Made by a program: the position numbers and the translations under genes. The notes beneath the pieces are model-generated. The model was given only the letters and a program-made list of their open reading frames with translations. It was not told the DNA's origin and did not search any database. From positions 256,362-320,361 of the forward strand of contig CAWEYB010000001.1 in the NCBI GenBank assembly GCA_963813225.1: a stretch of DNA of 64,000 nucleotides, in the 5' to 3' direction. Positions 8,837 to 23,605 of the stretch are shown here, piece after piece; within the stretch, counting starts at the first letter, position 1, and every line of letters starts with the position of its first letter. The stretch is from an uncultured Chloroflexia bacterium. GTDB lineage: Bacteria; Chloroflexota; Limnocylindria; Limnocylindrales; CSP1-4.

Positions 8837-10459
8837 GTGCGTACCCCGTTGCTGTTGTATGGGCTCGCCCTCCTCGTCCGGGCGCTGCTCATCTGGCATT
8901 TCCCGGACCCGGCATACCCCGATTCCGCGTACTACGTGGACGTCGCGCGCGCCCTCCACGCCGGCCAGGGGTTCAACGTCGACTTCATCTGGATCTTCCC
9001 CGAGGTCGGCGGCAAGATCCCGGCCGTCCCGACCCTGCCGATCCCGTCCAACGCCCACTGGATGCCGCTGGCGTCGATCGTCCAGGTCCCGTTCCTGGCG
9101 ATCTTCGGTGACGTCGCCTGGGCATCGGCGCTCCCGTTCGCGCTCATCGGCTCGATCGCGGCGCCGCTGACCTGGGCGATCGCCCGGGACGCGGGCGCCC
9201 GAACGTTCGTGTCGGTCGGGGCGGGCGTGCTCGTGGCGATCCCGCTGCTGTCCACCGTCTACATGGCGCAGCCCGACAACTTCTCGCTCTACCAGCCGCT
9301 GGTCATCGCCTCGCTGTGGATGGCGGCGCGCGCCCTTCGCGGGACGGCGCATCCCGGACGCTCGTTCGTCCTGGCCGGCCTGTTCGCCGGTCTCGCGACG
9401 TTCGCCCGGAACGACGGCCTGTTCGTGCTGGCCTCGCTGGGCATCGTCTTCCTGTTCGATCGCTGGCGGGCGTGGCGCTCGGCCGGCGCCAGGCGCCCGA
9501 CCATCCCGTTCGCGGCGGCCGTCGGCTCGGTGGCCGTCTTCCTGCTCGTCATGGGGCCGTGGTGGATCCGCCAGCTGGCCGTCTTCGGCTCGCTGTCGCC
9601 GTCGACCACGTCGGGCAAGGTCCTGTTCATCCGCGACATCGGGGAGTGGAACAGCATCACCATCCCGGCCACCCTCGACCACCTGCTCGGGATGGGGATC
9701 GGTCCGCTGATCATGACCCGGATCGGTGGCGCGGTCGCGGCCGTGTTCATCTATCTGACCCTGGTCTGCGGCTTCGTCCTCGCCCCGACGATGATCATCG
9801 GCGGCTGGGCGCGGCGCCGGTCGACCGACTTCGGCCCGTTCTTCGTCTACGCCGCGATCCTGTTCGCGTTCTCGGCGCTGATCTCGGCCGTCCACGTCCC
9901 GGGCGGGACGTTCATCCACTCGGCCATCGCGCTCGCGCCGTACAGCTACATCCTCGCGCTCGAGGGCCTCGTCATCGCCATCGGCTGGCTGGCCGCGCGT
10001 CGTCCGTCGTGGGACAAGGACATGGCGCTGCGGGTCTTCGGCGGCGCGACGATCGCCTTCGCGATCGGGATCGCGGTCCTCGGGACGCTCGCGGTCCACG
10101 CCACGTGGACGGCCCGCACCGACCAGCACCAGGCGGTCGCCGCCGCGCTCGACGCCGCGGGCGCCCCGGCGACTGACCGGGTCATGTCGATCGACGCCTC
10201 GAGCACCAAATACTGGTCGGGCCGCGGCGGGGTCGTGCTGGTCAACGACCCGCTGGACACGATCCACGACGTCGCGCGCGCGTACGACATCCGCTGGCTG
10301 GTCCTGGATCGGGACGATTCGGTCAGCTCGGTCGCGCCCATCCTCGACGGCGGGCCGCTCCCCGACTGGCTCGGGCCGCCGATCATGAGCCAGGGCTCGC
10401 CGACCCAGCTCGCGGTCTACCCGGTGCTCCCGGCACCGGCCGCGGAGACCACGCCGTGA
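8837..10459 (+). CDS. ArnT/PMT-family (GT39/GT83-like) polyprenyl-phosphate-dependent membrane glycosyltransferase
   Basis: Intact 540-aa ORF. N-terminal DSAYYVDVARALHAGQGF motif, about 11 or more transmembrane segments and a C-terminal soluble domain. Confidence 0.7.
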   Translation: MRTPLLLYGLALLVRALLIWHFPDPAYPDSAYYVDVARALHAGQGFNVDFIWIFPEVGGKIPAVPTLPIPSNAHWMPLASIVQVPFLAIFGDVAWASALPFALIGSIAAPLTWAIARDAGARTFVSVGAGVLVAIPLLSTVYMAQPDNFSLYQPLVIASLWMAARALRGTAHPGRSFVLAGLFAGLATFARNDGLFVLASLGIVFLFDRWRAWRSAGARRPTIPFAAAVGSVAVFLLVMGPWWIRQLAVFGSLSPSTTSGKVLFIRDIGEWNSITIPATLDHLLGMGIGPLIMTRIGGAVAAVFIYLTLVCGFVLAPTMIIGGWARRRSTDFGPFFVYAAILFAFSALISAVHVPGGTFIHSAIALAPYSYILALEGLVIAIGWLAARRPSWDKDMALRVFGGATIAFAIGIAVLGTLAVHATWTARTDQHQAVAAALDAAGAPATDRVMSIDASSTKYWSGRGGVVLVNDPLDTIHDVARAYDIRWLVLDRDDSVSSVAPILDGGPLPDWLGPPIMSQGSPTQLAVYPVLPAPAAETTP

Positions 10460-12086
10460 CGCGACGCGAGGCGATCGCCTCGGTGGTCGGGATCTTCGCC
10501 GTCGCGTTCGTGGCCCGGGTGCTGTTCGCGTCGCAGATCGTCTTCCCGAAGCCCGAGGACACGGCCTACTACTTCGGCGTCGCGCGCAACCTGGTCGAGG
10601 GCCGCGGCCTCGTCTCGGACGCGCTGTGGAGCTACCAGACCCCGCCGCTCGCGTTCCCGCGGGCCGCGTTCGAGGTGTGGCTGCCGCTCCCGTCGCTGCT
10701 GGCGGCGATCCCGATGGCGCTCTTCGGCGCCACCTTCGCCGCCGCCCAATGGGCGTCGGTCGTGCTCGGGGCCATCGTGCCCGGTCCTCGCCTGGCGGCT
10801 GGCCGCGGACGTCGCCGTGGAACGCGGGCTGCCGACCGGACGCGCCCGGGTGCTGGCCGTCGGCACCGGGCTGACCTGCGCCGTCTACCTGCCGCTGCTC
10901 CTCCATTCCGCCCTGCCCGACTCGACGATGCCGTTCGCGGTCCTCGCCCTCGCGGCCTGCCTGCTGATGGCGCGCATCGCCCGCGAGCCGCGTGGCGGCC
11001 GCCTCGCTCGACCTGCGTGTCGTCGGTCTCGGCGTCCTCATCGGCCTGGCCGCCCTGACCCGCAACGAGGCGATCTACCTCGGCCTGGCCTGGCTCATCG
11101 TCGCGGCCGGCATCGCCGGGCTGGACCGCCGGACGCGGGCCGGGCTCATCGGCGCGGTCGCGGCGGTCGCGCTGCTGGTCTTCCTGCCGTGGGCGATCCG
11201 CGACTGGGCCACCTTCGGCAGCCCGTTCCCGGGGCAGGCGGTCGCCAACGCGTTCTCGATCAGCGGCTTCGACATCTTCGCCTGGAACGATCCGCCGACG
11301 CTGGCCCGCTACCTGGCGGTCGGGCCGGCCCAGCTGATCGACATGCGCGTCGAGGGGCTCAGCCACAACCTGTTCAGCGTCCTGCTGCTGCCGGGTCTGC
11401 CGGTCTCGCTGATCGGCCTCATCGGGCTGCCGTGGGCCATCCGCGGCGGCGCCATCCGGCCGCTGGTCATCGTCAGCTTCGCGACCTTCCTGGTGACCAG
11501 CCTCGTCTTCCCGGTCGCCACGACCTGGGGCACGTTCCTCCACGCCGCCGGCCCGTTCCAGGTCCTGCTGGTCGTGTCGGCACTGCTGGCGCTCGACGCG
11601 CTCATCGCCCGGGTCGGCGTCCGGCTGGGCTGGACCCGACCGGTCGCCTGGCTCGGACCACTGCTCGGGATCTTCGGGTCGCTGCTCTTCTCGGTCGCGC
11701 TGCTGCCGTCGTTCGGGTCGGGCTCGAGCGCCACGGCCGAGCAGTACCGCCAGCTGGCGGCGGCGATGTCGGGCATCGGCCACCCGCTCGACGGCTCGAG
11801 CGGCCCGGTCATCACCAACTTCCCGATCTGGATGGCCGAGACCCAGCGGATCGACTCCCTGGCACTCCCCGACGAGCCGCCGCGGGACGTGCTCGACCTC
11901 GCCTCGACCTTCGGCGCGAAGCTCGTCGTCCTGCTCGACGCCGACAGCACCCACTGGCCGCACGACCTCGACGCCGGCGTCGACGGCAGCACCTGCTTCC
12001 ACGAGCTCGATCTCGCCGCGGCCCCGAGCCGGTCGCCCGGCGACACCCTGAGCGGCGTTCGTGCGTTCGAGGTCGTCTGCCCATGA
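10456..12086 (+). CDS. Second ArnT/PMT-family membrane glycosyltransferase; two frame breaks (about 10780 and 10990)
   Basis: GTGA overlap with the upstream stop. EDTAYYFGVARNLVEGRGL motif. The sequence continues through ORFs 10456-11058, 10817 onward and 10992-12086. Confidence 0.65.
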
Positions 12087-13229
12087 AAGGCGACCCCTAT
12101 ACTCACACTCCGATGGAGCCAGCACGCGCCGGGACCGATGCTCGGGACAGCCGCTTCGACGGACTCCACGCGGAGGCGAAGGCGGCGGTCGGCTACAGCG
12201 CGAACACGCTGCGGAGCGTCCGCGAGCGGTACCGCGAGGCGTACGCCGATTCGCTCGGTCAGTGGCAGGAGCTGCGCGACCAGCTCGACCAGGTCGATCG
12301 TGGACCGGTCGACGGCGGATGGGCGACCGGCACCGCTCCCATCGATCGGGCGGCCGATGCGGCGGAGGCCGGCGCCGACGACGCGCGCCGTCGAAGGCTG
12401 CGCGGGGACGTCGAGACGCTGACCACCGACCTCGGCGACCACCAGGCCGAGCTGGCCAAGCTCGAGCTCGCCGAGCGGACGCTCGAGCGCACCTGGCTGT
12501 TCCTCGAGCGCGGCGATGCGACGCTGCTGACCGATGTCGGCGGACCGACCACCGCCGGCGACGTCCAGATGCGGATCGTCGAGGCGCAGGAGGCCGAGCG
12601 CTCGCGGCTGGCCCAGGAGATCCACGACGGCCCGGCCCAGGCGCTCAGCAACACGATCTTCCAGGTCGAGTACATCGAGAAGGTCATCGATTCGGACCCG
12701 ATGCTCGCCCGCACCGAGCTGCGCTTCCTGCGCGAGCTCCTCCGTCGCGAGCTGGGCGACGTCCGGGCGTTCATCAGCCAGCTCCGACCGCCGATGCTCG
12801 ATCAGCTCGGGCTCGACGGCGCCATCACCGATACCGTCCGAATACATGAGGACGCTGACCGGGATCGACATCGCGCTCGACCTGGCGGCCCCGGCCGACG
12901 TCCTGACCGACGGCCAGCGGACCGTCGCGCTGCGCGTGACGCAGGAGGCCCTGCAGAACGTCCGCAAGCACGCCGCCGCGACCACCGTCTCGGTGACGAC
13001 CCAGCTCGGCGAGGACGACTGCTGGTCGCTCGAGGTCCGCGACGATGGCCGCGGTTTCGACATCGGCGCGGTCGCGGCCCGCGGCCGGCGGAACTTCGGG
13101 CTCCAATTCATGCGCGAGCGTGCCGAGCTGATCGGCGCGCGTTTCGACGTACGATCGCGGCCGGACGGCGGGACCGTCGTCCGCCTGGCGATCCCGACCG
13201 GACCCAGTACGGAAGAGGAGAGCTCATGA
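12083..13229 (+). CDS. Soluble DegS-like (HisKA_3) sensor histidine kinase with an N-terminal coiled coil; one frame break near 12840
   Basis: ATGA overlap at 12083-12086. H-box RSRLAQEIHDGPAQALSN, N-box QEALQNVRKHA, G-boxes VRDDGRGF and GLQFMRERAELIGA. No transmembrane segment. Confidence 0.8.
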
Positions 13230-13972
13230 GTGCGATGGACTACAACGGCCCAGATCGTCGGCGCGGCGGTCCGGACCGTCGCGCCCTCGACGAGGTGACG
13301 AGGATCCTCGTCGTCGACGACCATGCGCTGTTCCGGATGGGGATCGCCAACATCCTCGGGCACGAGTCCGACTTCGAGATCGTGGCCGAGGCCGAGGATT
13401 CGCGCGGCGCCATCGACCGCGCCCTCGAGACGTCGCCCGACATCATCCTGATGGATCTGTCGCTGCCCTCCCCGGGCGGCATCGAGACGACCCAGCGGAT
13501 CAAGCGCGAGCTGCCCTCGACCGGGATCATCGTGCTCGCCCAGACCGAGGACGAGGACGCGCTGTTCGACGCGATCAAGGCGGGCGCCGCCGCGTTCATC
13601 CTCAAGGACGTCGGCCCGGACGACCTGGTGACCATCATCCGTCGGGTGGTCGCGGGCGAGTACCTCATCAACGACAAGGTCTTCTCCAAGCCGGCCGTCG
13701 CCTCGCGCGTCCTCAAGGAGTTCCGCGAGCTGGCGGTCTACGGCCAGGATGCCGCGCCGATCTTCGCGCCGCTCTCCCCGCGCGAGGTCGAGATCCTCGA
13801 CAACATCGCCCAGGGGATGACCAACAAGCAGGTCGCCTACGCGCTGTCGATCAGCGAGCAGACCGTCAAGAACCACATGAGCTCGATCCTCCGCAAGCTG
13901 TCCGTCAACGACCGGACCCAGGCCGTCGTCTACGCGATGCGCCAGGGCTGGATCCGGATGCCGGAAGACTGA
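13226..13972 (+). CDS. NarL/LuxR-family response regulator (REC + HTH_LuxR)
   Basis: ATGA overlap at 13226-13229. ILVVDDH, IILMDLSLP, FILKD; C-terminal LSPREVEILDNIAQGMTNKQVAYALSISEQTVKNHM. Confidence 0.9.
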   Translation: MSAMDYNGPDRRRGGPDRRALDEVTRILVVDDHALFRMGIANILGHESDFEIVAEAEDSRGAIDRALETSPDIILMDLSLPSPGGIETTQRIKRELPSTGIIVLAQTEDEDALFDAIKAGAAAFILKDVGPDDLVTIIRRVVAGEYLINDKVFSKPAVASRVLKEFRELAVYGQDAAPIFAPLSPREVEILDNIAQGMTNKQVAYALSISEQTVKNHMSSILRKLSVNDRTQAVVYAMRQGWIRMPED

Positions 13973-13995: not shown

Positions 13996-15222
13996 ATGAC
14001 CGACATCGCACCCGCAGCCCCGCCACCGGCCACCCTGCCGGAGCTCTCCGGCCGCATGGCCGAGGAGCTGACGCAGCTCGACCGCGAGCTGGTCGAGGTC
14101 GACCTGCTGATCGCCCAGGCCCGCACGGAAGCGACGCGTCACGAAGCGCGCCGTGCATCGGCCGGCGAGAAGCTGACGGCCGCGACGGCATCCGCCACGT
14201 CTGCCGGGACGACGCTCGATCCGACCGTGGCGGCCGACCTCAACGCGCAGCTGGTGCTCCTCACCAAGCGGGCCGCGCTGATGGAGTCGCAGGTCGACGT
14301 CCTCGAAGGCAAGCGGCGCGCGCTGGGCCGCTATCGGGACACGATGGCGGTCTACGCCGAGGCGCTCGAGGGGTTCGGTGACGTCCCGATCCCGCCCGTG
14401 CTGGCCAAGCCGGCTTCCGCCAAGGCACCGGGCCAGCCCGATCCCACAGGTGTCCCGCCGGCGGTCTCGCGCCTCCTTCTCGGCGCGCAGGAGGACCTCC
14501 GCCGCGAGATCGCCCGGGCGATGCACGATGGCCCCGCCCAGAGCCTGACCAACATCGTGCTCCAGGCCCAGATCGTCGAGCGGCTCGTGGAGACCGATCC
14601 GAGCAAGGCCGGCGACGAGGTGCGCCAGCTCGTGGCGATGGTCCAGCAGACGCTCGAGGCGACCAAGTCGTTCATCTTCGACGTCCGGCCGATGGTCCTC
14701 GACGACCTCGGGCTGGTGCCGACGCTGCGTCGCGCGGCGCGCGAGCGCGGTCGGCGGGCGGGCGTCCCGGTCGAGTTCGACTCGTTGGGCCAGGAGCGGC
14801 GGCTGCCGATGGACCTCGAGAGCGGCCTGTTCCGGATCGTCGACGAGGCGATGGCCGCCTACCTGGGCGCCCGAGCCGAGCGCGTGTCGGTCCGGCTCGA
14901 CTGGTCCGAGCAGGTCGAGGCGACCATCTCCGCCTCCCGCAACGCCGCCGAGACGCGTGCCGACGCGACCCCGGACGCCGGCCCGGCCGAGGACCTGCCG
15001 CCGGCCCTGGCGGCGATGATGGAGGACCGCCGCGCGGATGCACGCGACGCGGCCGAGGCAGCCAGGCGCGAGGCGATCGTGGTCCTGCCGCCATCGACCT
15101 GGCGCGAGATCCAGAGCCGGGCGTGGACCCTCGGCCTGACCGCCGAGCTGTCCGCCGACGGCGCACAGCTCCGGCTGGTCGGCGACGTGCCGCCGCTCCA
15201 GACGCCCACCCAGACTGCATGA
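13996..15222 (+). CDS. DegS-like histidine-kinase paralog with an intact H-box but a degenerate ATP-binding domain (pseudo-kinase candidate)
   Basis: Intact 408-aa ORF. H-box REIARAMHDGPAQSLTN is present. The region equivalent to the N/G1/G2 boxes reads RIVDEAMAAYL...ISASRNAAE..., without the conserved Asn, DxGxG or GxGL motifs. Confidence 0.7.
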   Translation: MTDIAPAAPPPATLPELSGRMAEELTQLDRELVEVDLLIAQARTEATRHEARRASAGEKLTAATASATSAGTTLDPTVAADLNAQLVLLTKRAALMESQVDVLEGKRRALGRYRDTMAVYAEALEGFGDVPIPPVLAKPASAKAPGQPDPTGVPPAVSRLLLGAQEDLRREIARAMHDGPAQSLTNIVLQAQIVERLVETDPSKAGDEVRQLVAMVQQTLEATKSFIFDVRPMVLDDLGLVPTLRRAARERGRRAGVPVEFDSLGQERRLPMDLESGLFRIVDEAMAAYLGARAERVSVRLDWSEQVEATISASRNAAETRADATPDAGPAEDLPPALAAMMEDRRADARDAAEAARREAIVVLPPSTWREIQSRAWTLGLTAELSADGAQLRLVGDVPPLQTPTQTA

Positions 15223-15389
15223 CGCGCCCGCGGCTGTCCGCGGTCAGGGGTCAGGGAGTGGTGGAGTACGGGCTCATCCTGGCCCTGACCAGCATCTTCA
15301 CGCTGCTCATCCTGGTGGTCTTCGGCGGGACGCTGGCCGACGTCCTCGGGTTCATCGCCAACGCCATCGATGCGGCGACCGGGGGCTGA
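15219..15389 (+). CDS. Divergent Flp-type prepilin-like peptide (56 aa)
   Basis: The ATG overlaps the kinase-paralog stop (ATGA at 15219-15222). MTRPRLSAVRG/QGVVEYGLILALTSIFTLLILVVF fits the Flp G/XXXXEY motif plus a hydrophobic helix. Confidence 0.6.
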   Translation: MTRPRLSAVRGQGVVEYGLILALTSIFTLLILVVFGGTLADVLGFIANAIDAATGG

Positions 15390-15518
15390 CGGCCCCTCGG
15401 CCCGGTGAGAGTCCGGGGTGACGACCCCGTACCATCAGCCTAGTGTGCCCGCGCCCACTCCCTCCATATAGTGGCCGTGCCCTCAGCCGGGGGTGTCATC
15501 ATCCAGGAGGCACGCTCA

Positions 15519-15701
15519 ATGGCCCTTATCACGGACTTGTATCTCAAGGTCCTCAACGCGTTCGATCGCGATGAGGAAGGCCAGGGACTGGCCGAGTACG
15601 CGCTGATCCTCGCGCTCATCGCCATCGTGGCGATCGTGGCCCTCATCTTCCTGGGCGGCCAGGTCAGCAAGATCCTGAGCCAGGTCGGCAACTCGGTCTA
15701 G
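15519..15701 (+). CDS. flp: Flp pilin paralog A (60 aa; predicted mature peptide 39 aa)
   Basis: AGGAGG lies 8 nt upstream. MALITDLYLKVLNAFDRDEEG/QGLAEYALILALIAIVAIVALIFLGGQVSKILSQVGNSV. Confidence 0.85.
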   Translation: MALITDLYLKVLNAFDRDEEGQGLAEYALILALIAIVAIVALIFLGGQVSKILSQVGNSV

Positions 15702-15725
15702 GCTTCGCACTCGGTAGATCCATGG

Positions 15726-15760
15726 ACCGCCGGTCATCCGACCGGCGGTTCAATCATTTC
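15726..15760 (+). terminator. Rho-independent terminator candidate after flp paralog A
   Basis: accgccggt / accggcggt 9-bp stem with a 6-nt loop, followed by tcaatcatttc. Confidence 0.6.
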
Positions 15761-15808
15761 CGGCTTCTTCTCGCGGTTCGGCCGTGCACCGCAAGCTCCA
15801 AACCCCTC

Positions 15809-15838
15809 TTGACATTAGTCCTACGTCATTCGTACCGT
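15809..15838 (+). promoter_or_regulatory. Promoter candidate for flp paralog B (TTGACA-N18-TACCGT)
   Basis: Perfect -35 at 15809-15814. The -10 at 15833-15838 is weak. A similar architecture sits upstream of paralog C. Confidence 0.35.
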
Positions 15839-15881: not shown

Positions 15882-16049
15882 ATGACACGCGTCATGGACA
15901 TCCTGAGCTCGCTGCGCCGTGAGGACGGCCAGGGGCTCGCGGAGTACGCACTGATCCTTGCACTCATCGCCATCGTCGCCATCGTCGCCCTCATCTTCCT
16001 GGGCACGCAGGTCAGCCAGATCCTCAGCCAGGTCGGCAACTCGGTCTAG
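15882..16049 (+). CDS. flp: Flp pilin paralog B (55 aa; too short for the ORF track)
   Basis: Read directly from the sequence: ACGGAGG RBS, then MTRVMDILSSLRREDG/QGLAEYALILALIAIVAIVALIFLGTQVSQILSQVGNSV and TAG. Confidence 0.85.
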   Translation: MTRVMDILSSLRREDGQGLAEYALILALIAIVAIVALIFLGTQVSQILSQVGNSV

Positions 16050-16444: not shown

Positions 16445-16484
16445 ACGGCCGTCGGACCTCCGGGTCCGGCGGCCGTTTCTCATT
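16445..16484 (+). terminator. Rho-independent terminator candidate after flp paralog C
   Basis: acggccgtcggacc / ggtccggcggccgt 14-bp stem with one mismatch, followed by ttctcatt. Confidence 0.65.
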
Positions 16485-16681: not shown

Positions 16682-17596
16682 TTGAAGCGTTCCAATCGCC
16701 TCGTCCTGCTCGTCGGGGTCTTCCTGGCGATCGTCGCGTTCGTGGGGATCCTGTTGCTCGTCCGGAGCCCAAGCACCGGCCGACAACGGCCAGGCCGTCG
16801 CGCCGACGACGGGCCCCGTCGTCGTCGCGTCGGTGGACATCCCCCTGTCGACGAAGATCAGCGCCGACCAGGTGACGACCAAGACGCTCGATCTGACGCA
16901 GATCCTGCCCGGGCGCCTACACGGACCCGTCCCAGGTCGTCGGCCAGATCGCCCGACAGCCCGTCGCGACGGGCGCTCAGATCACGAGCGCCACGACCGC
17001 CGGCGGCGGTCCCCGGCCAGATCACCAACATCGATTGCCCCGCCACCCTGCGCTGCATGGCGGTCCAGGTGGACCAGGTCAGCGGCGTCGGGACGGTCAT
17101 CAAGACCGGTGACTACGTCGATGCGGTCGTCGGCCTGACGGCGGACAAGTTCCCGGTCACCACGATCAACCCGACCGATAACTCGATCACCGTCGTCGCC
17201 GGCATCAACGGCACGAGCGTCAAGCTCCTGCTCCAGGGCCTGCAGGTCATGGGCACGCTGCTGCCGCCGGTCGCCCCGCCGCCGGAAGGCAGCACGACCG
17301 CCTCGCCGGCCCCGTCCGGCGGACCGAGCACCGCGCTCAATGGCCAGCAGGAGATCGTCGTCCTGGCCGTCAGCGCCCAGCAGTCCGAAGTCCTCAAGTT
17401 CGTCCAGATGGACGGGAGCATCTCGCTCGCGCTCCGATCGCCCAACGACTTCATCGACCCGGCAACGGGAGCCCCGCTCCCGCCGGTCTCGGCCGAGACG
17501 ACGGGCATCATCCTCAAGACCCTGGTCGACTCGTACGGCGTCCTTCCGCCGGAGCTCGTCCAGACCGTGATCCCGACCGCCACCAAGAAGCCATAG
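16682..17596 (+). CDS. cpaB: Flp pilus assembly protein CpaB (N-terminal TM helix, SAF/RcpC-type domains); about 3 frame breaks between 16770 and 17010
   Basis: MKRSNRLVLLVGVFLAIVAFVGILLLV. The SAF-like VDIPLSTKISADQVTTKTLDLTQILPG is in another frame. The C-terminal part GDYVDAVV...EIVVLAVSAQQSEVLKFVQMDGSISLALRSP is in the original frame. Confidence 0.75.
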   Translation: MKRSNRLVLLVGVFLAIVAFVGILLLVRSPSTGRQRPGRRADDGPRRRRVGGHPPVDEDQRRPGDDQDARSDADPARAPTRTRPRSSARSPDSPSRRALRSRAPRPPAAVPGQITNIDCPATLRCMAVQVDQVSGVGTVIKTGDYVDAVVGLTADKFPVTTINPTDNSITVVAGINGTSVKLLLQGLQVMGTLLPPVAPPPEGSTTASPAPSGGPSTALNGQQEIVVLAVSAQQSEVLKFVQMDGSISLALRSPNDFIDPATGAPLPPVSAETTGIILKTLVDSYGVLPPELVQTVIPTATKKP

Positions 17597-17744: not shown

Positions 17745-19007
17745 ATGGCCGACCAGATCCGTGTCCTCGTCGTCGATGACATCCCAGAGACCCGCGACCA
17801 CCTGACGAAGCTGCTCGGTTTCGAGAGCGACATCGACGTGGTCGGCTCGGCGGCGTCCGGGCGCGAGGCCCTCGAGATGGCCACTCGGCTGACGCCGGAC
17901 GTGGTCCTCATGGACATCAACATGCCGGACATGGACGGCATCGCCGCCACCGAGCAGCTGTCCTCGGCGGTCCCCTCCGCGGCCGTCGTGATGATGTCCG
18001 TCCAGGGCGAGGCCGACTACCTGCGCCGCTCGATGCTCGCCGGCGCCCGGGAGTTCCTGGTCAAGCCGTTCAGCAGCGACGAGCTCACCGCCTCGATCCG
18101 ACAGGTCAGTGCCCGTGAGCGCGACAAGCAGAGCCGCATGGCGGTCATGCCGGTCGCATCGGCCAATGGCTCCGGCGGAAGCGTGCGGACGGGTGAGCCG
18201 GGCGAGCCGGGCCTGATCGTCGCCGTGTTCAGCCCCAAGGGCGGGGTCGGGCGGACGACCGTGGCCGTCAACCTGGCCGTCGCCGCCGCCACGGAGCTCG
18301 GCAAGAAGGTCGTCATCATGGACGCCTCGTTCCAGTTCGGTGACGTCGGGGTCCTGCTCAACCTCAACCCCAAGAGCAAGTCCATCGCGGACCTCCTCCC
18401 CGAGCTCGAGACCGGCGAACCGGACTCGCTCGACACGTTCCTGATCAGCCACACGGCCGGCATCCAGGTCCTGCTGGCGCCGCCGTCGCCCGAGACGGCC
18501 GAGATGATCACCGCGTCCGGGGTCAAGAAGATCCTCGACGCGCTGCGCCGGACCCACGACCTGGTGGTCGTCGACTGCACGGCGTTCTTCAACGACACGA
18601 CGCTGGCCGTCCTCGACGCCGCGGACGTGATCCTGACCATGCTCAGCCTCGAGATCACGAGCATCAAGAACATGCGCCTGTTCCTCGAGGTCGCCGACCA
18701 GCTCGGCTACGACCCGGGCAAGGTGCGTCTCGTCCTCAACCGCGCCGACTCGGCGCTCGGGATCCGCGTCGCAGACGTCGAGCACTCGATCGGCCGCAAG
18801 GTCGACGAGACGATCGTCAGCGACGGTCGGAGCGTGGTGTACGCATTCAACCGTGGAGTACCGTTCTTCCTCTCCAATCGGGAGGCACAGGTATCCCAGG
18901 ACATCCTCCGGTTGGCCCGATCCGTCGTCGGCGAAGGGTCCACCACAGCAACCGTCCCGGCCGACCGGAAGTCGGCCCAGAAGAAGTCGCTCTTCGCATG
19001 GCGATGA
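17745..19007 (+). CDS. cpaE: CpaE/TadZ-type ParA/MinD-like ATPase fused to a canonical receiver (REC) domain
   Basis: Intact 420-aa ORF. REC: VLVVDD, VVLMDINMPDMDG, MMSVQG, FLVKPF. ATPase: VFSPKGGVGRTTVAVNLA. Confidence 0.85.
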   Translation: MADQIRVLVVDDIPETRDHLTKLLGFESDIDVVGSAASGREALEMATRLTPDVVLMDINMPDMDGIAATEQLSSAVPSAAVVMMSVQGEADYLRRSMLAGAREFLVKPFSSDELTASIRQVSARERDKQSRMAVMPVASANGSGGSVRTGEPGEPGLIVAVFSPKGGVGRTTVAVNLAVAAATELGKKVVIMDASFQFGDVGVLLNLNPKSKSIADLLPELETGEPDSLDTFLISHTAGIQVLLAPPSPETAEMITASGVKKILDALRRTHDLVVVDCTAFFNDTTLAVLDAADVILTMLSLEITSIKNMRLFLEVADQLGYDPGKVRLVLNRADSALGIRVADVEHSIGRKVDETIVSDGRSVVYAFNRGVPFFLSNREAQVSQDILRLARSVVGEGSTTATVPADRKSAQKKSLFAWR

Positions 19008-19051: not shown

Positions 19052-20468
19052 ATGTCCCTCCTGAAGCGCATCGAGAGCGCTCGACCGGGAGCCAGCGGAG
19101 CACCGGGGCCGGCGCCCACGGCGCCGAGCGGCAACGTGCCGGCCACGCCGGGTGGCGCGCCGCCCAACACTGGCCACGTCGGGCCGGCTGACCAGCCAGG
19201 CGCCCGTGCGGGAATCATTCCGGGACGTCAAGTTCCGCATCCAGAACCGGGTCATCCAGGACCTGGACCCGAAGCTCGACCTGTCGAACCAGGTCGAGGT
19301 CCGGCGCCAGATCGAGGAGATCTTCGGCAAGGTCATCGACGAGGAAGGCCTCGCGCTGACCCGTGCCGAGCGCGTCCGGATGCTCGAGCAGATCACCGAC
19401 GAGATCATCGGCCTCGGGCCGCTCGAGCCGCTGCTCCGTGACGAGTCCATCACCGAGGTCATGGTCAACGGGCCGCGCCAGGTCTACATCGAGCGCTCCG
19501 GCAAGCTCGAGCTGACCAACGTCGTCTTCCAGAACGACGACCACGTCATGCGCATCATCGATCGGATCATCGCCCCGATCGGACGTCGCGTCGACGAGTC
19601 GTCGCCGATGGTCGACGCCCGCCTCACCGACGGTTCCCGCGTCAACGCCATCATCCCGCCGCTGTCATTGGTCGGCCCGGTCATCACCATCCGCAAGTTC
19701 TCGGCGTCGCCGTTCACGGTCGACGACCTCATCCGTTTCGGGACCGCCACCGCAGACATGTTCGACTTCCTTCGAGCATGCGTGGAGGCTCGCCTGAACA
19801 TCTTCGTGTCCGGCGGCACCGGCTCCGGCAAGACCACGACCCTCAACGTCCTGTCGTCGTTCATCCCGAACGACGAGCGGATCGTGACGATCGAGGACGC
19901 CGCCGAGCTCCAGCTCCGGCAGGAGCACGTGGTCACTCTCGAGTCTCGCCCGCCCAACATCGAGGGCAAGGGCGCGATCCCGATCCGCGAGCTCGTCCGC
20001 AACGCCCTGCGCATGCGCCCCGACCGCATCATCGTCGGGGAGTGCCGCTCGGGCGAGGCGCTCGACATGCTCCAGGCCATGAACACGGGCCACGACGGCT
20101 CGATGTCGACCGGCCACGCGAACTCGCCACGCGACATGCTGTCCCGCCTCGAGACGATGGTCCTGATGGCCGGCGTCGACCTGCCCCTGCGGGCCATCCG
20201 CGAGCAGGTCGCATCGGCGGTCGATCTCATCGTCCAGCAGTCACGGCTCAAGGACGGGACCCGCAAGATCGTCAACATCACCGAAGTCCAGGGCATGGAA
20301 GGTGATGTCATCGTCATGCAGGACGTGTTCATCTTCGAGCAGACCGGCGTCGTCGAAGGCAAGATCCAGGGCCGGCTCAAGCCGACCGGGATCCGGCCCA
20401 AGTTCGTCGAGAAGTTCGAGGTGATGGGGATCAATCTCCCACCCGGCCTGTTCGGGTTCACCTACTAG
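19052..20468 (+). CDS. cpaF: Tad secretion ATPase CpaF/TadA; probable frame break about 19150-19185. Alternatively the gene starts at GTG 19152.
   Basis: Walker A GGTGSGKTT, Asp box, Walker B RPDRIIVGECRSGEA and His box TGHDGSMSTGHAN. The N-terminal MSLLKRIESARPG piece lies in a different frame. Confidence 0.9.
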
Positions 20469-20494
20469 GCCCGCGGGAAGGAGCTGTCGACGCG

Positions 20495-21509
20495 GTGGAT
20501 ACCATGGCGCTCGCGGTCGCAGGCGTCGCCGCTCTGGCGATCGTCCTGATCGCGATCGGCGTCGCGACTTCCGGCGGAGGAGGCATCTCCGATCGCCTGG
20601 AGCGGTACGCCTGCCAAGCCGACGGAGGTCCAGAAGACCTCCTCGTCGGGTCAGGGTGGCGTGGCCGAGCTGATCGCCCAGAGCGCGACCCTCAACAACC
20701 TCAACCGGGTCGTCGAGCAGCGCGACTTCGGCGCGAACCTCGCGCGCGACATCGCCCGGGCGGACCTCAAGCTCAAGCCATCCGAGTTCCTGCTCATCTG
20801 GGCCGGGTCGGTGGTCGGCATCCCGTTGGCGATGCTGGTCCTCTCCCCGATCCTGCCGGCGCTCGGCAACCCCCTGTTCCTGCTGATCGGCGGGTTCGTC
20901 GGGTTCCTGCTCCCGCGCTTCTGGCTCGGCCGTCGCAAGGCGGGTCGGCTGGGGGCCTTCAACAAGCAGCTTCCTGACACCATCACGCTCATCGCCAACG
21001 CCCTCCGGGCCGGCTCATCGTTCCTGCAGGCCATCGAGCTCGTCGTGCGCGAGTCGCGGCCGCCGATCTCGACCGAGTTCGGGCGCGTCATCCGCGAGGT
21101 CAACCTTGGCCTCCCGTTCGACCAGGCGCTCGAGAACATGGTCCGGCGGGTGCGCTCCGACGACCTCGAGCTGATGGCCACCGCGATCAGCATCCAGCAC
21201 CAGGTCGGCGGCAACCTCGCCGAGATCCTCGACTCGATCGCGTACACCATCCGCGAGCGCATCCGGATCCAGGGCGAGATCCGGACCCTGACGGCGCAGC
21301 AGCGCCTGTCCGGCTACGTCGTCGGGTTCCTGCCGATCGGCCTGGCGGGCTTCCTGTTCATCGCCGCACCCGGCTTCATGAAGCCGATGTTCGACAATCC
21401 GCCGGAGATCCTCGGTCTCCCGGCGGGCGTGGTCATCCTGATCTTCGGCGGTTTCATGATGTTCATGGGCTTCATGTTCATCCGCAAGATCGTCGACATC
21501 GAGGTCTAG
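20495..21509 (+). CDS. tadB: Tad pilus platform protein TadB (T2SSF family); one frame break near 20612
   Basis: N-terminal TM piece MDTMALAVAGVAALAIVLIAIG..DRLERYA, then ORF 20661-21509 with LPDTITLIANALRAGSSFLQAIE and C-terminal transmembrane helices. Confidence 0.85.
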
Positions 21510-21512
21510 ACG

Positions 21513-22450
21513 ATGCCCATCCTTGCGATCGTCGTCGCTGCCCTCGCGGCCGGCGCCATCCTGCTCATCGTCATCGGGCTTGCCGGCATCATCGCCGGTG
21601 GACCCCGTCCAGGCTCGGCTGACCCAGCTCGGGTCGATGCAGGCCAAGAACCTCGAGGAGCTCGAGCTCCAGCAGCCGTTCATCGAGCGGACGCTGCGCC
21701 CGCTGGCGAACCGGCTGTCCGGGCAGCGTCGCGCGCGTCACCAGCTCGTCCTTCAGCGAACGGACCGAGAAGCGGCTCGCGCTGGCCGGCAACCCCGGCG
21801 ACCTCCGCGTCGCCGACTGGCTCGGCATCAAGGCGATCGGCGCGATCGTCGGCGCGATCCTGTTCTTCTTCCTGTTCGGGATCGTCGGCCTCATCGGGCT
21901 CCCGTTCGTCATCGGCGGCATCCTCATGCCGCTGGTCGGCGCGCTGTTCGGCTACACGGCTCCGGAATTCTGGCTCGGCCGCCGGGTCAAGAAGCGCCAG
22001 AAGGCGATCCTGCTGATGATCCCGGACGCGCTGGACCTGCTGACCATCTCCGTGCGTGCCGGCCTCGGCTTCGACGCCGCGCTGGGCAAGGTCGTCGAGA
22101 AGCTGCAGGGCCCGCTGTCCGACGAGTTCCGCCGGGCGCTGGCCGAGGTTCGGGTCGGCAAGGCGCGCCGCGACGCGCTGCGCGACATCGTGCCGCGGAC
22201 CGAGGTCGTGCCGCTGACCAACTTCATCGGCGCGATCATCCAGGCCGAGCAGCTGGGCGTGTCGATCTCCAAGGTGCTGCAGGTCCAGTCCGAGCAGCTC
22301 CGCATCGAGCGCCGCCAGCGCGCCGAGGAACAGGCGGCCAAGGCGCCGATCAAGATGCTGTTCCCGCTGGTCGGCTGCATCTTCCCGTCGCTGTTCATCG
22401 TCATCCTCGGGCCGGCGATCATCCTCATCGTCGAGAACCTCAAGGTCTAG
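21513..22450 (+). CDS. tadC: Tad pilus platform protein TadC (T2SSF family); two frame breaks (about 21600 and 21730)
   Basis: MPILAIVVAALAAGAILLIVIGLAG, then VQARLTQLGS...FIERTLRPLANRLSG, then ...IPDALDLLTISVRAGLGFDAALGKV..IIQAEQLGVSISKVL. Confidence 0.85.
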
Positions 22451-22474
22451 CCCGGTCCGGGCACCGAGCACTCG

Positions 22475-22868
22475 ATGACCGCGCCGCTGCGCGCCCGCAA
22501 TCTCGACCGCCAGACCGAGCTGGCCACGCGGCTCGAGGTCGCCGATGGCCTATGGAGCCGAGTTCATGGGCCTGATGGGCCGTCCCACCCTGGAGCCGGA
22601 CACCGGGCTGTGGCTGACCGGGACGAACGGCATCCACATGATGTTCATGCGCTTCGCGATCGATGCCGTGTTCCTCGCCAAGCCGGACCAGGCGGGCGAC
22701 GAGGCGCGCGCCGTCCTCTCGGTCCACCGCGGACTGCGTGCCTGGACCGGTCTCGTGCCGCTGGTCCGTGGCGCCAACGGCGTCCTCGAGCTGCCGGTCG
22801 GGACCATCGAACGCAGCGGCACGGCCGTCGGCGACCGGATCGCGCTGGAGCCTGCCACAGCCGGCTGA
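22475..22868 (+). CDS. DUF192 family protein; one frame break near 22555
   Basis: RLEVADGLWSR.., then GLMGRPTLEPDTGLWLTGTNGIHMMFMRFAIDAVFL. This matches the DUF192 pattern (R.GLMgR...iH..fM.f.iDv.f). Confidence 0.6.
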
Positions 22869-22910
22869 AGTGAGCCGCGGTGAAGCGGCGCCGGCCATCA
22901 TCGACACGCG

Positions 22911-23605
22911 ATGGCGGCCATCCGGCGGCTGACGGCCGCGACCCTCGATCTCGCCTTTCCGGCGCTCTGCTCGGGCTGTGGCCGGGAGGGCCCGCCCCTC
23001 TGTCCCGACTGCCTGCCCGAGCTCGACGCCCGTCTCGGGTTGCCGGGCGGCACGCCGCTCGGGCTGCCCGCCGATATCCCGGCGCCACTCCTGCAGCTCG
23101 ACTGGTGCGCGCCGTTCGCGGGCGCCGTCCGACACGGGCTCCACGACCTCAAGTACAAGGGCGAGCGCCGCCTGGCCGAACCGTTCGGGGCGGCCGTCGC
23201 GCGACGGTGGGCGCGGGTCGGATCGGGCGCCCAGGTCGCTCGTGCCCGTCCCCGTCCACGCGGACCGGGAGCGGCAGCGCGGCTACGATCAGGCGGCCCT
23301 GATCGCGGAGGTGGCGGCCCGCGACCTCGGTCTGCCCGTCGGTCCGCGCGCTCGTCCGCCGGCGGGCGACGATCGCCCAGTTCGAGCTCGGCCGCCACGA
23401 GCGCGAGGCCAATGTCGCGGGTGCGTTCGAGGCTCGGGCCGGGCGGGAGGACGGTCGCGGGCCCGGGGCGACTGTGGTCGGTCGCTGGGTGCTGCTGGTC
23501 GACGATGTGGTCACCACCGGGGCGACGCTGGCGGCCTGCGCGACCGCGCTCCGTCGTGCCGGTGCCGTCGCTGTCAGTGCGATCGCGGTCGCCCGGGAGC
23601 GATGA
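22911..23605 (+). CDS. comFC: ComF-family protein (ComFC-like phosphoribosyltransferase-fold, N-terminal Zn finger); 2 frame breaks
   Basis: FPALCSGCGREGPPLCPDC, LVPVPVHADRERQRGYDQAALIA and VLLVDDVVTTGATLAACATALRRAGA in three frames. The stop is at 23603-23605. Confidence 0.7.

What the first reader, a model, noticed from the sequence alone, without database searches (positions are those of the whole stretch)
8837..23605. A 15-kb same-strand supra-operon joins GT-C glycosyltransferases, a soluble two-component system, four Flp peptides, a secretin-less Tad machine and ComFC
Every gene from 8837 to 23605 is on the + strand.

Four consecutive junctions are 4-nt start/stop overlaps: GTGA at 10456-10459, and ATGA at 12083-12086, 13226-13229 and 15219-15222. 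They chain two ArnT/PMT-like enzymes to a TM-less DegS-like kinase, a LuxR regulator, a degenerate kinase paralog and a Flp-like peptide. Three pilin cassettes follow, then cpaB, REC-cpaE, cpaF, tadB, tadC, DUF192 and comFC.

The window has no secretin (rcpA), no tadV/cpaA prepilin peptidase and no tadE/F/G minor pilins. The missing secretin fits a monoderm.

I do not recognise a described Tad locus that is translationally fused to polyprenyl-dependent glycosyltransferases and to its own cytoplasmic kinase pair. My working hypothesis is a regulated, possibly glycosylated, Flp fibre system. The glycosylation link is pure inference from adjacency.
Basis: partly seen in the sequence, partly recalled or inferred. 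Interest (0 to 1): 0.75.

Follow-up and report, generated by a model that had tools for sequence, protein, structure and literature searches.

The report
Conserved Tad pilus locus, Limnocylindria
This is a real pilus (Tad/Flp) gene cluster of an uncultured soil Chloroflexota lineage, always preceded by a tightly packed operon of two membrane glycosyltransferases and a two-component regulator; the arrangement is conserved across the class, but it is several transcription units rather than one, its apparent gene breaks are assembly errors, and pilin glycosylation remains a guess.

Summary
But in the raw sequence 10456-12086 and 12083-13229 are not open reading frames. At least 12 single-base insertions break GT2, HK1, cpaB, cpaF, tadB, tadC, DUF192 and comFC. 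The same kind of break hits murA and atpD, and three relatives (one 96% identical) lack each extra base. So these are assembly errors, not gene decay.

The source is a Limnocylindria (Chloroflexota) MAG. In 80 species-level relatives the order GT1-GT2-HK1-RR-HK2-Flp(n)-cpaB-cpaE-cpaF-tadB-tadC-DUF192-comFC-hpf has no exception. The 4-nt overlaps recur at GT1/GT2 (56/58), GT2/HK1 (52/56) and HK1/RR (55/62).

It is not one operon. Each major pilin gene has its own promoter-like element and a strong terminator hairpin. comFC is variably spaced and travels with housekeeping hpf-nfo.

HK2 is a pseudokinase: the acceptor His is kept and the ATP-binding motifs are lost. CpaE carries a canonical receiver domain.

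Best reading: a Tad pilus system with a dedicated, co-located regulatory module that is co-transcribed with two GT-C enzymes of unknown acceptor. Pilin glycosylation is possible (invariant Ser29) but untested. I rate it a new variant of a known kind, of moderate interest.

The parts
8837..10459 (+). GT1: polytopic GT-C glycosyltransferase (PMT_2), 540 aa, intact
   Evidence: Pfam PMT_2 32.6 bits versus cut-off 26.1. At least 9 hydrophobic segments plus a soluble C-terminus of about 120 aa. Conserved in all relatives.
10456..12086 (+). GT2: paralogue of GT1, about 542 aa after removing two 1-nt assembly insertions (about 10779 and 11005). Start overlaps the GT1 stop (GTGA).
   Evidence: tblastn pieces in three frames at 73-80% identity to the intact L002 orthologue. 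Insertions are absent in L002, L010 and L001. 27% identical to GT1, no Pfam hit of its own. Overlap conserved in 56/58 loci.
12083..13229 (+). HK1: soluble HisKA_3 histidine kinase, about 381 aa after removing a 1-nt insertion (about 12843). ATGA overlap with GT2.
   Evidence: HisKA_3 and HATPase_c fall on separate frame pieces. No TM segment. Overlap conserved in 52/56 loci.
13226..13972 (+). RR: NarL/LuxR-family response regulator, 248 aa. ATGA overlap with HK1.
   Evidence: Response_reg + GerE. 94% identical to the L002 orthologue. Overlap conserved in 55/62 loci.
13996..15222 (+). HK2: pseudokinase paralogue of HK1, 408 aa. DHp domain with an invariant His177 and a degenerate catalytic domain.
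   Evidence: Pfam HisKA_3 only. hhalign to HK1 stops at the N-box, where HK1 'EALQN' is HK2 'EAMAA', and there is no G1/G2. The AF2 model matches DesK DHp+CA with E 4e-7. 75-84% identical in many MAGs.
15219..15389 (+). Flp-1: divergent Flp-like prepilin (56 aa; mature 45 aa ending AIDAATGG), coupled to HK2 (ATGA)
   Evidence: G-XXXX-EY motif; Flp_Fap 24 bits, below cut-off. 52 orthologues; no own promoter motif (0/52) and no terminator. -4 overlap in 29/65 loci and a gap of 15 nt or less in most others.
15429..15518 (+). Conserved promoter/leader of the first major pilin: GTACCATC (15429), CTAGTG (15440), TATAGT (15467), hairpin GCCCTC/GGGGGT (15479-15494), SD (15506)
   Evidence: Consensus at 75% or more across 45 species. 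Hairpin pairs kept, with one compensatory change. No Rfam match.
15519..15701 (+). Flp-2: major pilin cassette 1 (60 aa; mature 39 aa)
15724..15751 (+). Terminator hairpin after Flp-2
   Evidence: 13-bp perfect stem, z -3.5.
15786..15838 (+). Promoter-like element of Flp-3: GCACC box (15786), TTGACA (15809), TACCGT (15833)
15882..16049 (+). Flp-3: major pilin cassette 2 (55 aa; mature 39 aa)
16072..16102 (+). Terminator hairpin after Flp-3
   Evidence: z -3.6.
16164..16192 (+). Promoter-like element of Flp-4: TTGACG-N17-TACCTT
16247..16420 (+). Flp-4: major pilin cassette 3 (57 aa; mature 39 aa)
16445..16476 (+). Terminator hairpin after Flp-4
   Evidence: 15-bp stem, z -4.7.
16682..17596 (+). 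cpaB/rcpC (about 300 aa). The internal stretch from about 16760 to 17010 is out of frame because of assembly indels.
   Evidence: Pfam RcpC. The L002 orthologue passes the TIGR03177 cut-off (125 versus 71 bits). Indels shown.
17745..19007 (+). REC-cpaE/tadZ (420 aa), intact
   Evidence: Response_reg 99 bits + AAA_31/ParA. D11, D12, D57, S85 and K107 kept in 68-69/69 species.
19052..20468 (+). cpaF/tadA ATPase (about 471 aa). The N-terminus is displaced by a 1-nt insertion near 19171.
   Evidence: T2SSE 222 bits. 98.8% identical to L002 over residues 37-470; the N-terminal piece is in another frame.
20495..21509 (+). tadB platform protein (about 337 aa), with a 1-nt insertion near 20612
   Evidence: T2SSF.
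21513..22450 (+). tadC platform protein (about 311 aa), with two 1-nt insertions (about 21591 and 21721)
   Evidence: T2SSF; three frame pieces.
22475..22868 (+). DUF192 protein (about 130 aa), with a 1-nt insertion near 22556. Last gene packed with the machinery.
   Evidence: Pfam DUF192. Median tadC->DUF192 gap is 29 nt.
22911..23605 (+). ComF-like phosphoribosyltransferase (about 230 aa, two 1-nt insertions). A neighbour, not part of the system.
   Evidence: TIGR00201 comF 69.9 bits versus cut-off 233. Variable spacing from DUF192. Syntenic with hpf-nfo.

Best explanation
This is a functional Tad (type IVc / Flp) pilus locus that is conserved across the class Limnocylindria (Chloroflexota). 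It has three layers.

(A) A six-gene, translationally coupled operon: two GT-C membrane glycosyltransferases, a soluble HisKA_3 kinase (HK1), a NarL-type response regulator, a pseudokinase paralogue (HK2) and a divergent Flp-like peptide (Flp-1).

(B) One to six self-contained major-pilin cassettes, each with its own promoter and intrinsic terminator. This layout would give high pilin output.

(C) cpaB, followed by a packed REC-cpaE-cpaF-tadB-tadC-DUF192 machinery operon. No secretin, prepilin peptidase or TadE-like pilins are nearby.

Shown here: the gene content, the conservation of order and overlaps, the cassette architecture, the pseudokinase status of HK2, an intact phospho-acceptor receiver on CpaE, and the artefactual nature of the frameshifts.

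Inferred:
- HK1 phosphorylates the NarL-type regulator, which drives the pilin and machinery promoters.
- HK1 may also phosphorylate the CpaE receiver, gating assembly.
- HK2 may modulate HK1 through a DHp heterodimer or by acting as a phosphatase or phosphotransfer partner.
- The GT-C pair, made from the same mRNA as the regulators, uses a polyprenyl-phosphate sugar outside the membrane. Its target is either the pilin C-terminus or an envelope glycan that the pilus must cross or cooperate with.

comFC, hpf and nfo are housekeeping neighbours.
For: - Family assignments.
- Source and relatives are Limnocylindria.
- Invariant gene order in 80 loci with HK2 identity down to 50%.
- Conserved 4-nt overlaps (56/58, 52/56, 55/62).
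- Synteny breaks immediately upstream of GT1, so GT1 is the conserved 5' edge of the block.
- Terminators and promoters flank the major pilins but not Flp-1.
- Machinery genes are packed at 3-45 nt.
- HK2 keeps His177 but lacks the N/G1/G2 boxes and still has a DesK-like fold.
- The CpaE receiver residues are invariant.
- The frameshifts are private single-base insertions that also hit murA and atpD.
- Literature: a two-component system next to and controlling a tad locus is known (PprAB; PMC3510237, PMC6821963). Chloroflexales carry rcpC-tadZABC and flp (PMC7332563). Monoderm Tad systems lack a secretin and keep tadV elsewhere (PMC6916266).
Against: - There is no expression, phosphotransfer or piliation data; everything regulatory is inferred from layout.
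- Housekeeping comFC-hpf-nfo are just as syntenic, so conserved adjacency in this lineage over-predicts functional linkage. Only the overlaps argue for the GT-TCS coupling.
- All 80 loci were found by seeding on HK2, so the survey cannot reveal genomes that have tad or the GTs without the kinases.
- The prepilin peptidase and minor pilins needed for a working Tad system were not found in the window.
- GT2 has no family hit of its own, and neither GT matches any solved structure by sequence.
Confidence: 0.65

Rival explanations
1. Dedicated pilin glycosylation system. GT1 and GT2 O-glycosylate the exposed C-terminus of the 39-aa Flp pilin (for example the invariant Ser29) from polyprenyl-phosphate sugars. 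The two-component system co-regulates modification and fibre production.
For: - The GT pair is translationally chained to the pilus regulators and Flp-1 in about 90% or more of species.
- GT1 is the conserved 5' boundary of the block.
- Ser29 is invariant in 121/121 unique pilins, and S/T is frequent at positions 30, 33, 34 and 38.
- Precedent: the membrane glycosyltransferase TfpW modifies a type IVa pilin and is encoded beside it (bioRxiv 10.1101/2020.04.19.049825).
- Flp glycosylation has been proposed to explain fibre diameter (PMC6370729).
Against: - There is no direct evidence.
- The only solved Tad pilus shows no glycan density (PMC10710030).
- An invariant Ser may simply be structural.
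- The region is full of other GT-C genes aimed at envelope glycans.
- No GT-pilin co-variation can be tested, because both are always present.
Confidence: 0.2
2. Envelope-glycan module with frozen synteny. GT1/GT2 and the kinase-regulator-pseudokinase set form an envelope-glycan (cell-wall polymer or lipoglycan) biosynthesis and stress-regulation operon. It merely lies next to the tad genes because this stretch of the Limnocylindria chromosome is rarely rearranged.
For: - The neighbourhood is GT-C rich: GT87 x2, DUF2142, a third PMT_2 at 25436-27151, rfbF/rfbG and a WecA-like GT4.
- The unrelated housekeeping genes comFC-hpf-nfo are equally syntenic (23/26).
- Strong terminators and separate promoters uncouple the major pilins and machinery from the upstream operon.
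Against: - Flp-1, a pilin-family peptide, is the last gene of the GT-TCS operon and overlaps or abuts HK2 in most species.
- The first major pilin lacks a canonical promoter (2 cases only). It follows Flp-1 without a terminator, so read-through from the operon is plausible.
- CpaE carries a canonical receiver whose closest paralogue in the locus is the RR (35% identity).
- Upstream GT genes are not conserved with the block.
Confidence: 0.25
3. DNA-uptake (competence) Flp pilus acting with ComFC, as in Micrococcus luteus, where Flp pili are required for transformation.
For: - A ComF-like gene follows the tad genes in all relatives.
- M. luteus precedent (PMC6370729, PMC6916266).
Against: - The ComF-like protein scores 69.9 bits against a 233-bit family cut-off.
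- Its distance from DUF192 ranges from 34 to more than 1100 nt.
- It is tied to hpf-nfo. From my own recollection, not checked here, a comF-hpf pairing occurs widely in Gram-positive genomes.
- No comEA/comEC is in the window.
Confidence: 0.07
4. Decaying, non-functional locus. The frameshifts are real, and the tad/GT/kinase genes are pseudogenes.
For: About 12 frame breaks in 15.6 kb of the raw sequence.
Against: - The same kind of break splits murA into four pieces and atpD into two.
- All the breaks are single-base insertions absent from L002, L001 and the 96%-identical L010. L010 has its own, different indels.
- Out-of-frame pieces keep 70-99% amino-acid identity to intact orthologues.
Confidence: 0.03

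Closest known systems
Tad/Flp (type IVc) pilus loci of monoderms and Chloroflexales (B. breve tad2003, M. luteus tad, Chloroflexus/Roseiflexus rcpC-tadZABC + flp)
   Same: - Flp prepilins with the G-XXXX-EY motif, a TadA/CpaF ATPase, two platform paralogues TadB/TadC, and TadZ/CpaE.
- No secretin, and the prepilin peptidase is not in the locus.
- RcpC/CpaB is present, as in Chloroflexales (PMC7332563, PMC6916266).
   Different: - No TadE/F/G-type minor pilins nearby; a short divergent Flp-1 is present instead.
- 1-6 tandem major-pilin cassettes, each with its own promoter and terminator.
- A conserved upstream operon of two GT-C enzymes, a kinase, a regulator and a pseudokinase.
- DUF192 as a fixed last gene.
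P. aeruginosa Flp/Tad locus with the adjacent PprA-PprB two-component system
   Same: A two-component system controls Flp pilin and tad gene expression (PMC3510237, PMC6821963). From my own recollection, not checked here, it is encoded beside that tad locus.
   Different: - Here the kinase is soluble and of the HisKA_3/DesK type, and it is paired with a conserved pseudokinase.
- It is translationally chained to glycosyltransferases.
- The organism lacks a secretin.
- No homology between the two regulatory systems was tested.
TfpW (and TfpO/PilO) pilin glycosylation in P. aeruginosa type IVa pili; AglB-dependent glycosylation of archaeal pilins
   Same: A polytopic membrane glycosyltransferase encoded next to a pilin gene. 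It uses lipid-linked sugar to modify exposed Ser/Thr residues of the pilin (bioRxiv 10.1101/2020.04.19.049825).
   Different: - No sequence relationship to GT1/GT2 was tested or shown.
- The target here would be a 39-aa all-helical Flp pilin.
- Modification is entirely hypothetical.
DesK/DegS-type HisKA_3 kinases with NarL-family regulators, and pseudokinase partners such as RetS-GacS
   Same: - HK1 has HisKA_3 + HATPase_c, and the RR is REC+GerE.
- The HK2 model matches DesK DHp+CA, and RetS appears among the structural hits.
- Like RetS, HK2 could act by pairing with a true kinase.
   Different: - HK1 and HK2 fall below every curated NCBIfam equivalog cut-off, so they are not DegS, DesK, NarX or LiaS orthologues.
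- HK2 keeps its acceptor His.
- Both proteins lack TM and known sensor domains.

Membership tests
Tad/Flp (type IVc) pilus system | Flp-family prepilin with the G/XXXXEY processing motif and a short hydrophobic mature peptide | tested here: met
   Four ORFs carry GQG[LV][AV]EY followed by a hydrophobic helix. Pfam Flp_Fap hits have E 9e-6 to 4e-5 but score 24-26 bits, below the 32.2-bit cut-off.
Tad/Flp (type IVc) pilus system | TadA/CpaF secretion ATPase | tested here: met
   T2SSE 222 bits.
Tad/Flp (type IVc) pilus system | Two paralogous platform proteins (TadB, TadC) | tested here: met
   Two adjacent T2SSF proteins. They are 29% identical to each other.
Tad/Flp (type IVc) pilus system | TadZ/CpaE ParA-like protein and RcpC/CpaB | tested here: met
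   AAA_31/ParA/CbiA + REC. RcpC in Pfam. TIGR03177 cpaB at 125 bits versus cut-off 71 for the intact orthologue.
Tad/Flp (type IVc) pilus system | Dedicated prepilin peptidase (TadV/CpaA, Peptidase_A24) | tested here: not met
   None among the window ORFs scanned or within +/-10 kb in relatives. It could lie elsewhere in the genome, as in B. breve (PMC6916266). The whole genome is not available here.
Tad/Flp (type IVc) pilus system | TadE/TadF-type minor pilins | tested here: not met
   No TadE domain was found in the window. Only the short divergent Flp-1 is present.
Tad/Flp (type IVc) pilus system | RcpA secretin (diderm versions only) | tested here: not met
   No secretin domain in the window. 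This is expected for a monoderm-type envelope (PMC6916266).
GT-C glycosyltransferases (PMT_2 / ArnT-PMT-like) | Significant match to a GT-C family model | tested here: met
   GT1 matches PMT_2 at 32.6 bits versus cut-off 26.1. This holds for GT1 only.
GT-C glycosyltransferases (PMT_2 / ArnT-PMT-like) | The same for GT2 | tested here: inconclusive
   No Pfam or NCBIfam hit. Assigned only through 27% identity to GT1 over about 490 aa (E 6e-32).
GT-C glycosyltransferases (PMT_2 / ArnT-PMT-like) | Polytopic N-terminal membrane domain with a conserved acidic residue near the first loop | tested here: met
   9-14 hydrophobic segments. Asp35 is invariant in both alignments, within 'PDSxYYxDVA' and 'PEDTAYYxGVA'. 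Its topological side was not determined.
GT-C glycosyltransferases (PMT_2 / ArnT-PMT-like) | Similarity to a solved GT-C structure | tested here: not met
   No PDB sequence hit, even with profiles at E<=10. No fold comparison was run, because the ortholog alignments (built from fetched loci) are not accepted by the structure tool.
HisKA_3 / NarL-type two-component system | Kinase with a HisKA_3 DHp domain plus HATPase_c; regulator with REC plus a GerE HTH | tested here: met
   (HK1 pieces, RR). The intact L002 HK1 carries both domains.
DegS (equivalog sense) | Orthology to B. subtilis DegS | tested here: inconclusive
   Best NCBIfam matches are MctS, UhpB and NarQ, all far below their cut-offs; no DegS model appears among the hits. 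JGI labels relatives 'DegS'. The only shared feature is a soluble coiled-coil architecture.
Pseudokinase (HK2) | Kinase fold retained but nucleotide-binding motifs (N, G1, G2) lost | tested here: met
   hhalign stops at the N-box, where Asn is replaced by Ala. No HATPase_c hit. The model has a DesK-like DHp+CA fold at pLDDT 69.6.
ComF/ComFC family | Score above the curated ComF family cut-off | tested here: not met
   TIGR00201 at 69.9 bits versus 233.55; GntX at 72.7 versus 304. A PRTase domain is present in L002, and there is a weak N-terminal zinc-ribbon hit.
Single operon ('supra-operon') | No internal terminators or promoters; tight spacing throughout | tested here: not met
   Three strong terminator hairpins and promoter-like elements. 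A 145-nt conserved gap between cpaB and cpaE, and a variable DUF192-comFC gap. This is in-silico evidence only.

The most novel reading that the evidence does not exclude
Limnocylindria may carry a dedicated Flp-pilin modification and control module. In this reading, two GT-C enzymes O-glycosylate the 39-aa pilin (for example at the invariant Ser29). A soluble kinase/pseudokinase pair would couple pilin transcription (through the NarL-type regulator) with assembly (through the receiver domain on CpaE). To my knowledge, this would be the first Tad pilus with a dedicated GT-C glycosylation system and a pseudokinase-tuned branched phosphorelay.
Probability: 0.15. Interest if true: 0.7.

Novelty: new variant of a known kind. 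Interest (0 to 1): 0.42.

Why it matters
From general knowledge, not tested here, Limnocylindria (formerly Ellin6529) are abundant, uncultured soil and freshwater Chloroflexota. Almost nothing is known about their surface biology, and my literature search found no paper mentioning their pili.

A class-wide, invariant Tad locus with its own regulatory operon points to pili as a core trait of the lineage, for adhesion, aggregation or surface motility. It also gives concrete, testable parts:
- a soluble kinase plus a pseudokinase;
- a NarL-type regulator with candidate operator motifs;
- a phosphorylatable CpaE;
- two orphan GT-C enzymes.

If the GT-C pair modifies the pilin, that would extend pilin glycosylation to the minimal all-helical Flp class.

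Practically, the case is a caution for annotation. Long-read MAGs of this project carry roughly one indel per kilobase, which breaks gene models and can pass for pseudogenes.

Tried and rejected
- Exact-protein look-ups for CpaF, GT1 and P0001 returned nothing, so the source contig itself could not be fetched.
- I first took 24502-27255 for a frameshifted secA. Pfam showed two separate genes instead: an AP_endonuc_2 (nfo-like) TIM barrel and a third PMT_2.
- The simple terminator scan missed the pilin terminators because their tails have fewer than five T in eight bases. Folding found them.
- PDB sequence and profile searches for GT1 and GT2 were empty even at E<=10.
- I did not predict a GT structure. 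The ortholog alignments came from fetched loci, which the structure tool does not accept. I judged a further 13-CPU-hour homology search unlikely to identify the acceptor.
- Rfam found nothing in the pilin leaders or anywhere else in the window.
- The consensus fold of the Flp-2 leader gave only a 6-bp hairpin with one compensatory change, so I do not claim a structured RNA element.
- NCBIfam gave no specific name for GT1, GT2, HK1, HK2 or Flp.
- I considered walking outward to other Chloroflexota classes. The tools list only the closest hits, and context look-ups are restricted, so distribution outside Limnocylindria remains untested.

Full report
**What is in the sequence**

The window is about 70% G+C, so raw ORF lists are full of shadows. 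I therefore used third-position G+C phase to find the coding frames. From 8837 to beyond 23605 all coding signal is on the + strand.

10456-12086 is 1631 nt and 12083-13229 is 1147 nt, and neither is divisible by three. Pfam on the frame pieces gives:
- PMT_2 for GT1;
- HisKA_3 and HATPase_c on two different frames for HK1;
- REC+GerE for the regulator;
- HisKA_3 only for the 408-aa paralogue HK2;
- weak Flp_Fap hits for four small ORFs;
- RcpC, REC+AAA_31/ParA, T2SSE, two T2SSF and DUF192.

I had suspected that 24502-27255 was a broken secA. It is in fact two genes, an AP-endonuclease-2 (nfo-like) gene and a third PMT_2 gene.

**Source and relatives**

A homology search with HK2 found an identical protein on a 2.2-Mb contig. 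It also found hundreds of relatives at 74-84% identity, and the named ones are Candidatus Limnocylindrales.

One relative (L002, a 516-kb contig) carries the same genes in the same order, all intact, with 4-nt overlaps at the first three junctions. The gene products are 531, 542, 380, 248, 403, 51, 56, 56, 68, 296, 421, 470, 337, 310, 126, 227 and 205 aa.

**The frameshifts are assembly errors**

tblastn of the intact L002 proteins against the window splits the following genes over two or three frames:
- GT2 (two breaks) and HK1 (one break);
- the N-termini of cpaF and tadB;
- tadC (two breaks), DUF192 (one break) and comFC (two breaks);
- an upstream GT87 gene.

Each piece keeps 70-99% identity to L002.

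At the DNA level every uncompensated difference is a single extra base in the window. The same phenomenon splits murA into four pieces that hit consecutive parts of one Pfam model, and it splits atpD in two. My reading of the remaining translations shows similar splits in atpG, atpB, prfA, parA/B and gyrB.

L010 is 96% identical to the window. It lacks the extra base at every one of these positions and has its own, different single-base indels.

So the breaks are consensus errors of a long-read assembly; many relatives come from the 'MFD' MAG series. They are not pseudogenes.

**Conservation**

A scan of one genome per species (seeded with an HK2 alignment) found 258 genomes with a relative. 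It returned the best 80 loci, all Limnocylindria or 'uncultured Chloroflexia' MAGs, with HK2 identity from 84% down to 50%.

Probing them with the intact L002 proteins gave the order GT1-GT2-HK1-RR-HK2-Flp1-Flp(n)-cpaB-cpaE-cpaF-tadB-tadC-DUF192-comFC-hpf. This held in every locus that extends far enough. The only deviation was one inverted comFC.

Junction geometry across species:

| Junction | Result |
|---|---|
| GT1/GT2 | 4-nt overlap in 56/58 |
| GT2/HK1 | 4-nt overlap in 52/56 |
| HK1/RR | 4-nt overlap in 55/62 |
| HK2/Flp-1 | 4-nt overlap in 29/65, and 15 nt or less in most others |

Synteny stops immediately upstream of GT1. Of 55 loci with at least 4 kb upstream, 15 share none of the window's upstream genes, and the GT87 genes appear in either orientation. 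Downstream, synteny runs on through comFC, hpf and nfo, with nfo following hpf in 23/26 loci.

This means conserved adjacency in this lineage is not by itself evidence of shared function, because housekeeping genes are just as fixed. The overlaps are the stronger argument, and they link the GT pair to the kinase-regulator set and, less rigidly, to Flp-1.

**Transcriptional architecture**

- *Terminators.* Each of the three major pilin genes is followed at once by a perfect 13-15-bp G+C hairpin with a U-containing tail (z -3.5, -3.6 and -4.7). Flp-1 has none. Across relatives, the 60 nt after 238 major-pilin stops fold with a median of -32 kcal/mol. The value is -20.9 after Flp-1 and -20.7 for random windows.
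- *Promoters.* A TTGACN-N16-19-TAnnnT element lies upstream of 117/242 major pilins, 0/52 Flp-1 genes and 2.4% of random windows.
- *First major pilin.* It almost never has that promoter. Instead it has a leader conserved across 45 species, with GTACCATC, CTAGTG, TATAGT, a 6-bp hairpin and GAGTACTC before the ribosome-binding site. There is no Rfam match.
- *Machinery spacing (medians).* cpaB->cpaE 145 nt, cpaE->cpaF 45, cpaF->tadB 21, tadB->tadC 3, tadC->DUF192 29, DUF192->comFC 86 (range 34 to more than 1100), comFC->hpf about 100.

So there are at least three layers: the GT-TCS-Flp1 operon, the autonomous pilin cassettes, and the cpaB / cpaE-DUF192 machinery. comFC lies outside the system.

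**The proteins**

- *HK1 and HK2.* Neither has a hydrophobic segment.
- *HK2.* A profile comparison aligns HK2 with HK1 only from the DHp domain to the N-box. There HK1's invariant EALQN is EAMAA in HK2. HK2 has no counterpart of HK1's DDGRGF motif, yet its acceptor His177 is invariant. An AlphaFold model (pLDDT 69.6) shows a coiled-coil hairpin, two DHp helices and an alpha/beta domain. Its best structural matches are DesK DHp+CA (E 4e-7), and the pseudokinase RetS is also listed. HK2 is therefore a conserved pseudokinase, not a decaying copy.
- *CpaE.* Its receiver keeps D11, D12, D57, S85 and K107 in 68-69 of 69 species. Its closest paralogue in the locus is the RR receiver.
- *GT1 and GT2.* Both are polytopic with a soluble C-terminal domain and an invariant Asp35. 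Only GT1 reaches a Pfam cut-off, and neither matches any solved structure by sequence.
- *Major pilin.* The mature form is 39 aa in 195/242 cases. Residues 1-25 are almost invariant, Ser29 is invariant, and S/T is frequent at positions 30, 33, 34 and 38. Copy number per locus is 1-6, most often 3.
- *Missing components.* No Peptidase_A24, TadE or secretin domain was found in the window.

**Comparison with known systems**

- Tad (type IVc) pili are known in monoderm phyla including Chloroflexi. The monoderm versions lack the secretin and keep the prepilin peptidase elsewhere (PMC6916266).
- Chloroflexales carry rcpC-tadZABC, tadEEG and flp (PMC7332563).
- A two-component system controlling a tad locus is known in P. 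aeruginosa (PprAB; PMC3510237, PMC6821963).
- A membrane glycosyltransferase beside a pilin gene that modifies the pilin is known for type IVa pili (TfpW; bioRxiv 10.1101/2020.04.19.049825).
- The only solved Tad pilus shows no glycan (PMC10710030).
- I found no paper on Limnocylindria pili.

What is new here is the combination and its fixity: a GT-C pair, a soluble kinase, a NarL-type regulator, a pseudokinase and a divergent Flp peptide in one overlapped operon. It sits directly in front of multi-copy pilin cassettes and a secretin-less machine with a phosphorylatable CpaE, across a whole class.

**Verdict**

The content and junctions are right, but the frame breaks were missed, some gene starts are wrong, and comFC does not belong.

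Co-conservation and GT-TCS coupling are real. 'One supra-operon' is not supported, and glycosylation of the pilin remains an inference with a credible rival, an envelope-glycan role.

I rate it a new variant of a known kind, of moderate interest.

Noticed in passing
whole window, e.g. murA 31226-32614 (-), atpD 33222-34581 (-), GT87 at 8023: The assembly carries roughly one single-base indel per 1-1.5 kb. murA is split into four frame pieces and atpD into two. By my reading of the translations, atpG, atpB, prfA, parA/B and gyrB are also split. Any ORF-based annotation of this contig will under-call or truncate genes.
   Followed up: yes
window 15429-15518: The non-coding region between Flp-1 and the first major pilin is strongly conserved in 45 species. 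It contains GTACCATC, CTAGTG, TATAGT, a 6-bp hairpin GCCCTC/GRGGGT and the palindrome GAGTACTC before the SD. It has no Rfam match and only one compensatory change. It may be an activator-dependent promoter with a leader.
   Followed up: partly
window 15786-15790 and the equivalent positions in relatives: A 'GCACC' box lies 23-25 nt upstream of the -35 hexamer in 40 of 117 pilin promoters, against about 1.7% expected. A second promoter class has CTA immediately before TTGAC (35 cases). These are candidate regulator-binding sites.
   Followed up: partly
window 17597-17744: The cpaB-cpaE spacer has a conserved length (median 145 nt, 10th-90th percentile 89-155) and is G+C-rich with several hairpins (z only -1.7 in the window). 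Its function is unknown.
   Followed up: no
window 111-8828 and 25436-27151: The neighbourhood is rich in GT-C and envelope-glycan genes: rfbG-like dehydratase, rfbF-like cytidylyltransferase (frame-broken), DUF2142, an unassigned polytopic protein at 5184-6598 (-), two GT87 genes, and a third PMT_2 enzyme downstream. A GT4 WecA/MraY-like gene lies at 43934-45160 (-).
   Followed up: partly
window 40208-42708 (-): A large extracellular repeat protein with at least five Big_9/cadherin-like repeats plus an fn3-like domain. It is probably a surface adhesin and is split by frame errors. No link to the tad locus was tested.
   Followed up: no
window 22911-25440; L002 19011-21212: The order comF-like, hpf, nfo-like (AP_endonuc_2) is as conserved as the tad block (nfo follows hpf in 23/26 loci). 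The hpf ORF in the window runs about 25 aa longer than in L002, possibly because of another indel near 24310-24340.
   Followed up: partly
window 13226-13300: The response regulator has an Arg-rich N-terminal extension (MSAMDYNGPDRRRGGPDRRALDE) before the receiver domain. The whole protein is 94% identical to the L002 orthologue, which makes it much more conserved than its neighbours (77-83%).
   Followed up: no
relatives L001-L082: The number of major pilin cassettes varies from 1 to 6 per locus (mode 3). The last cassette often encodes a longer variant (43-46 aa mature) with its own promoter class. This suggests duplication and divergence of pilin cassettes within the class.
   Followed up: partly
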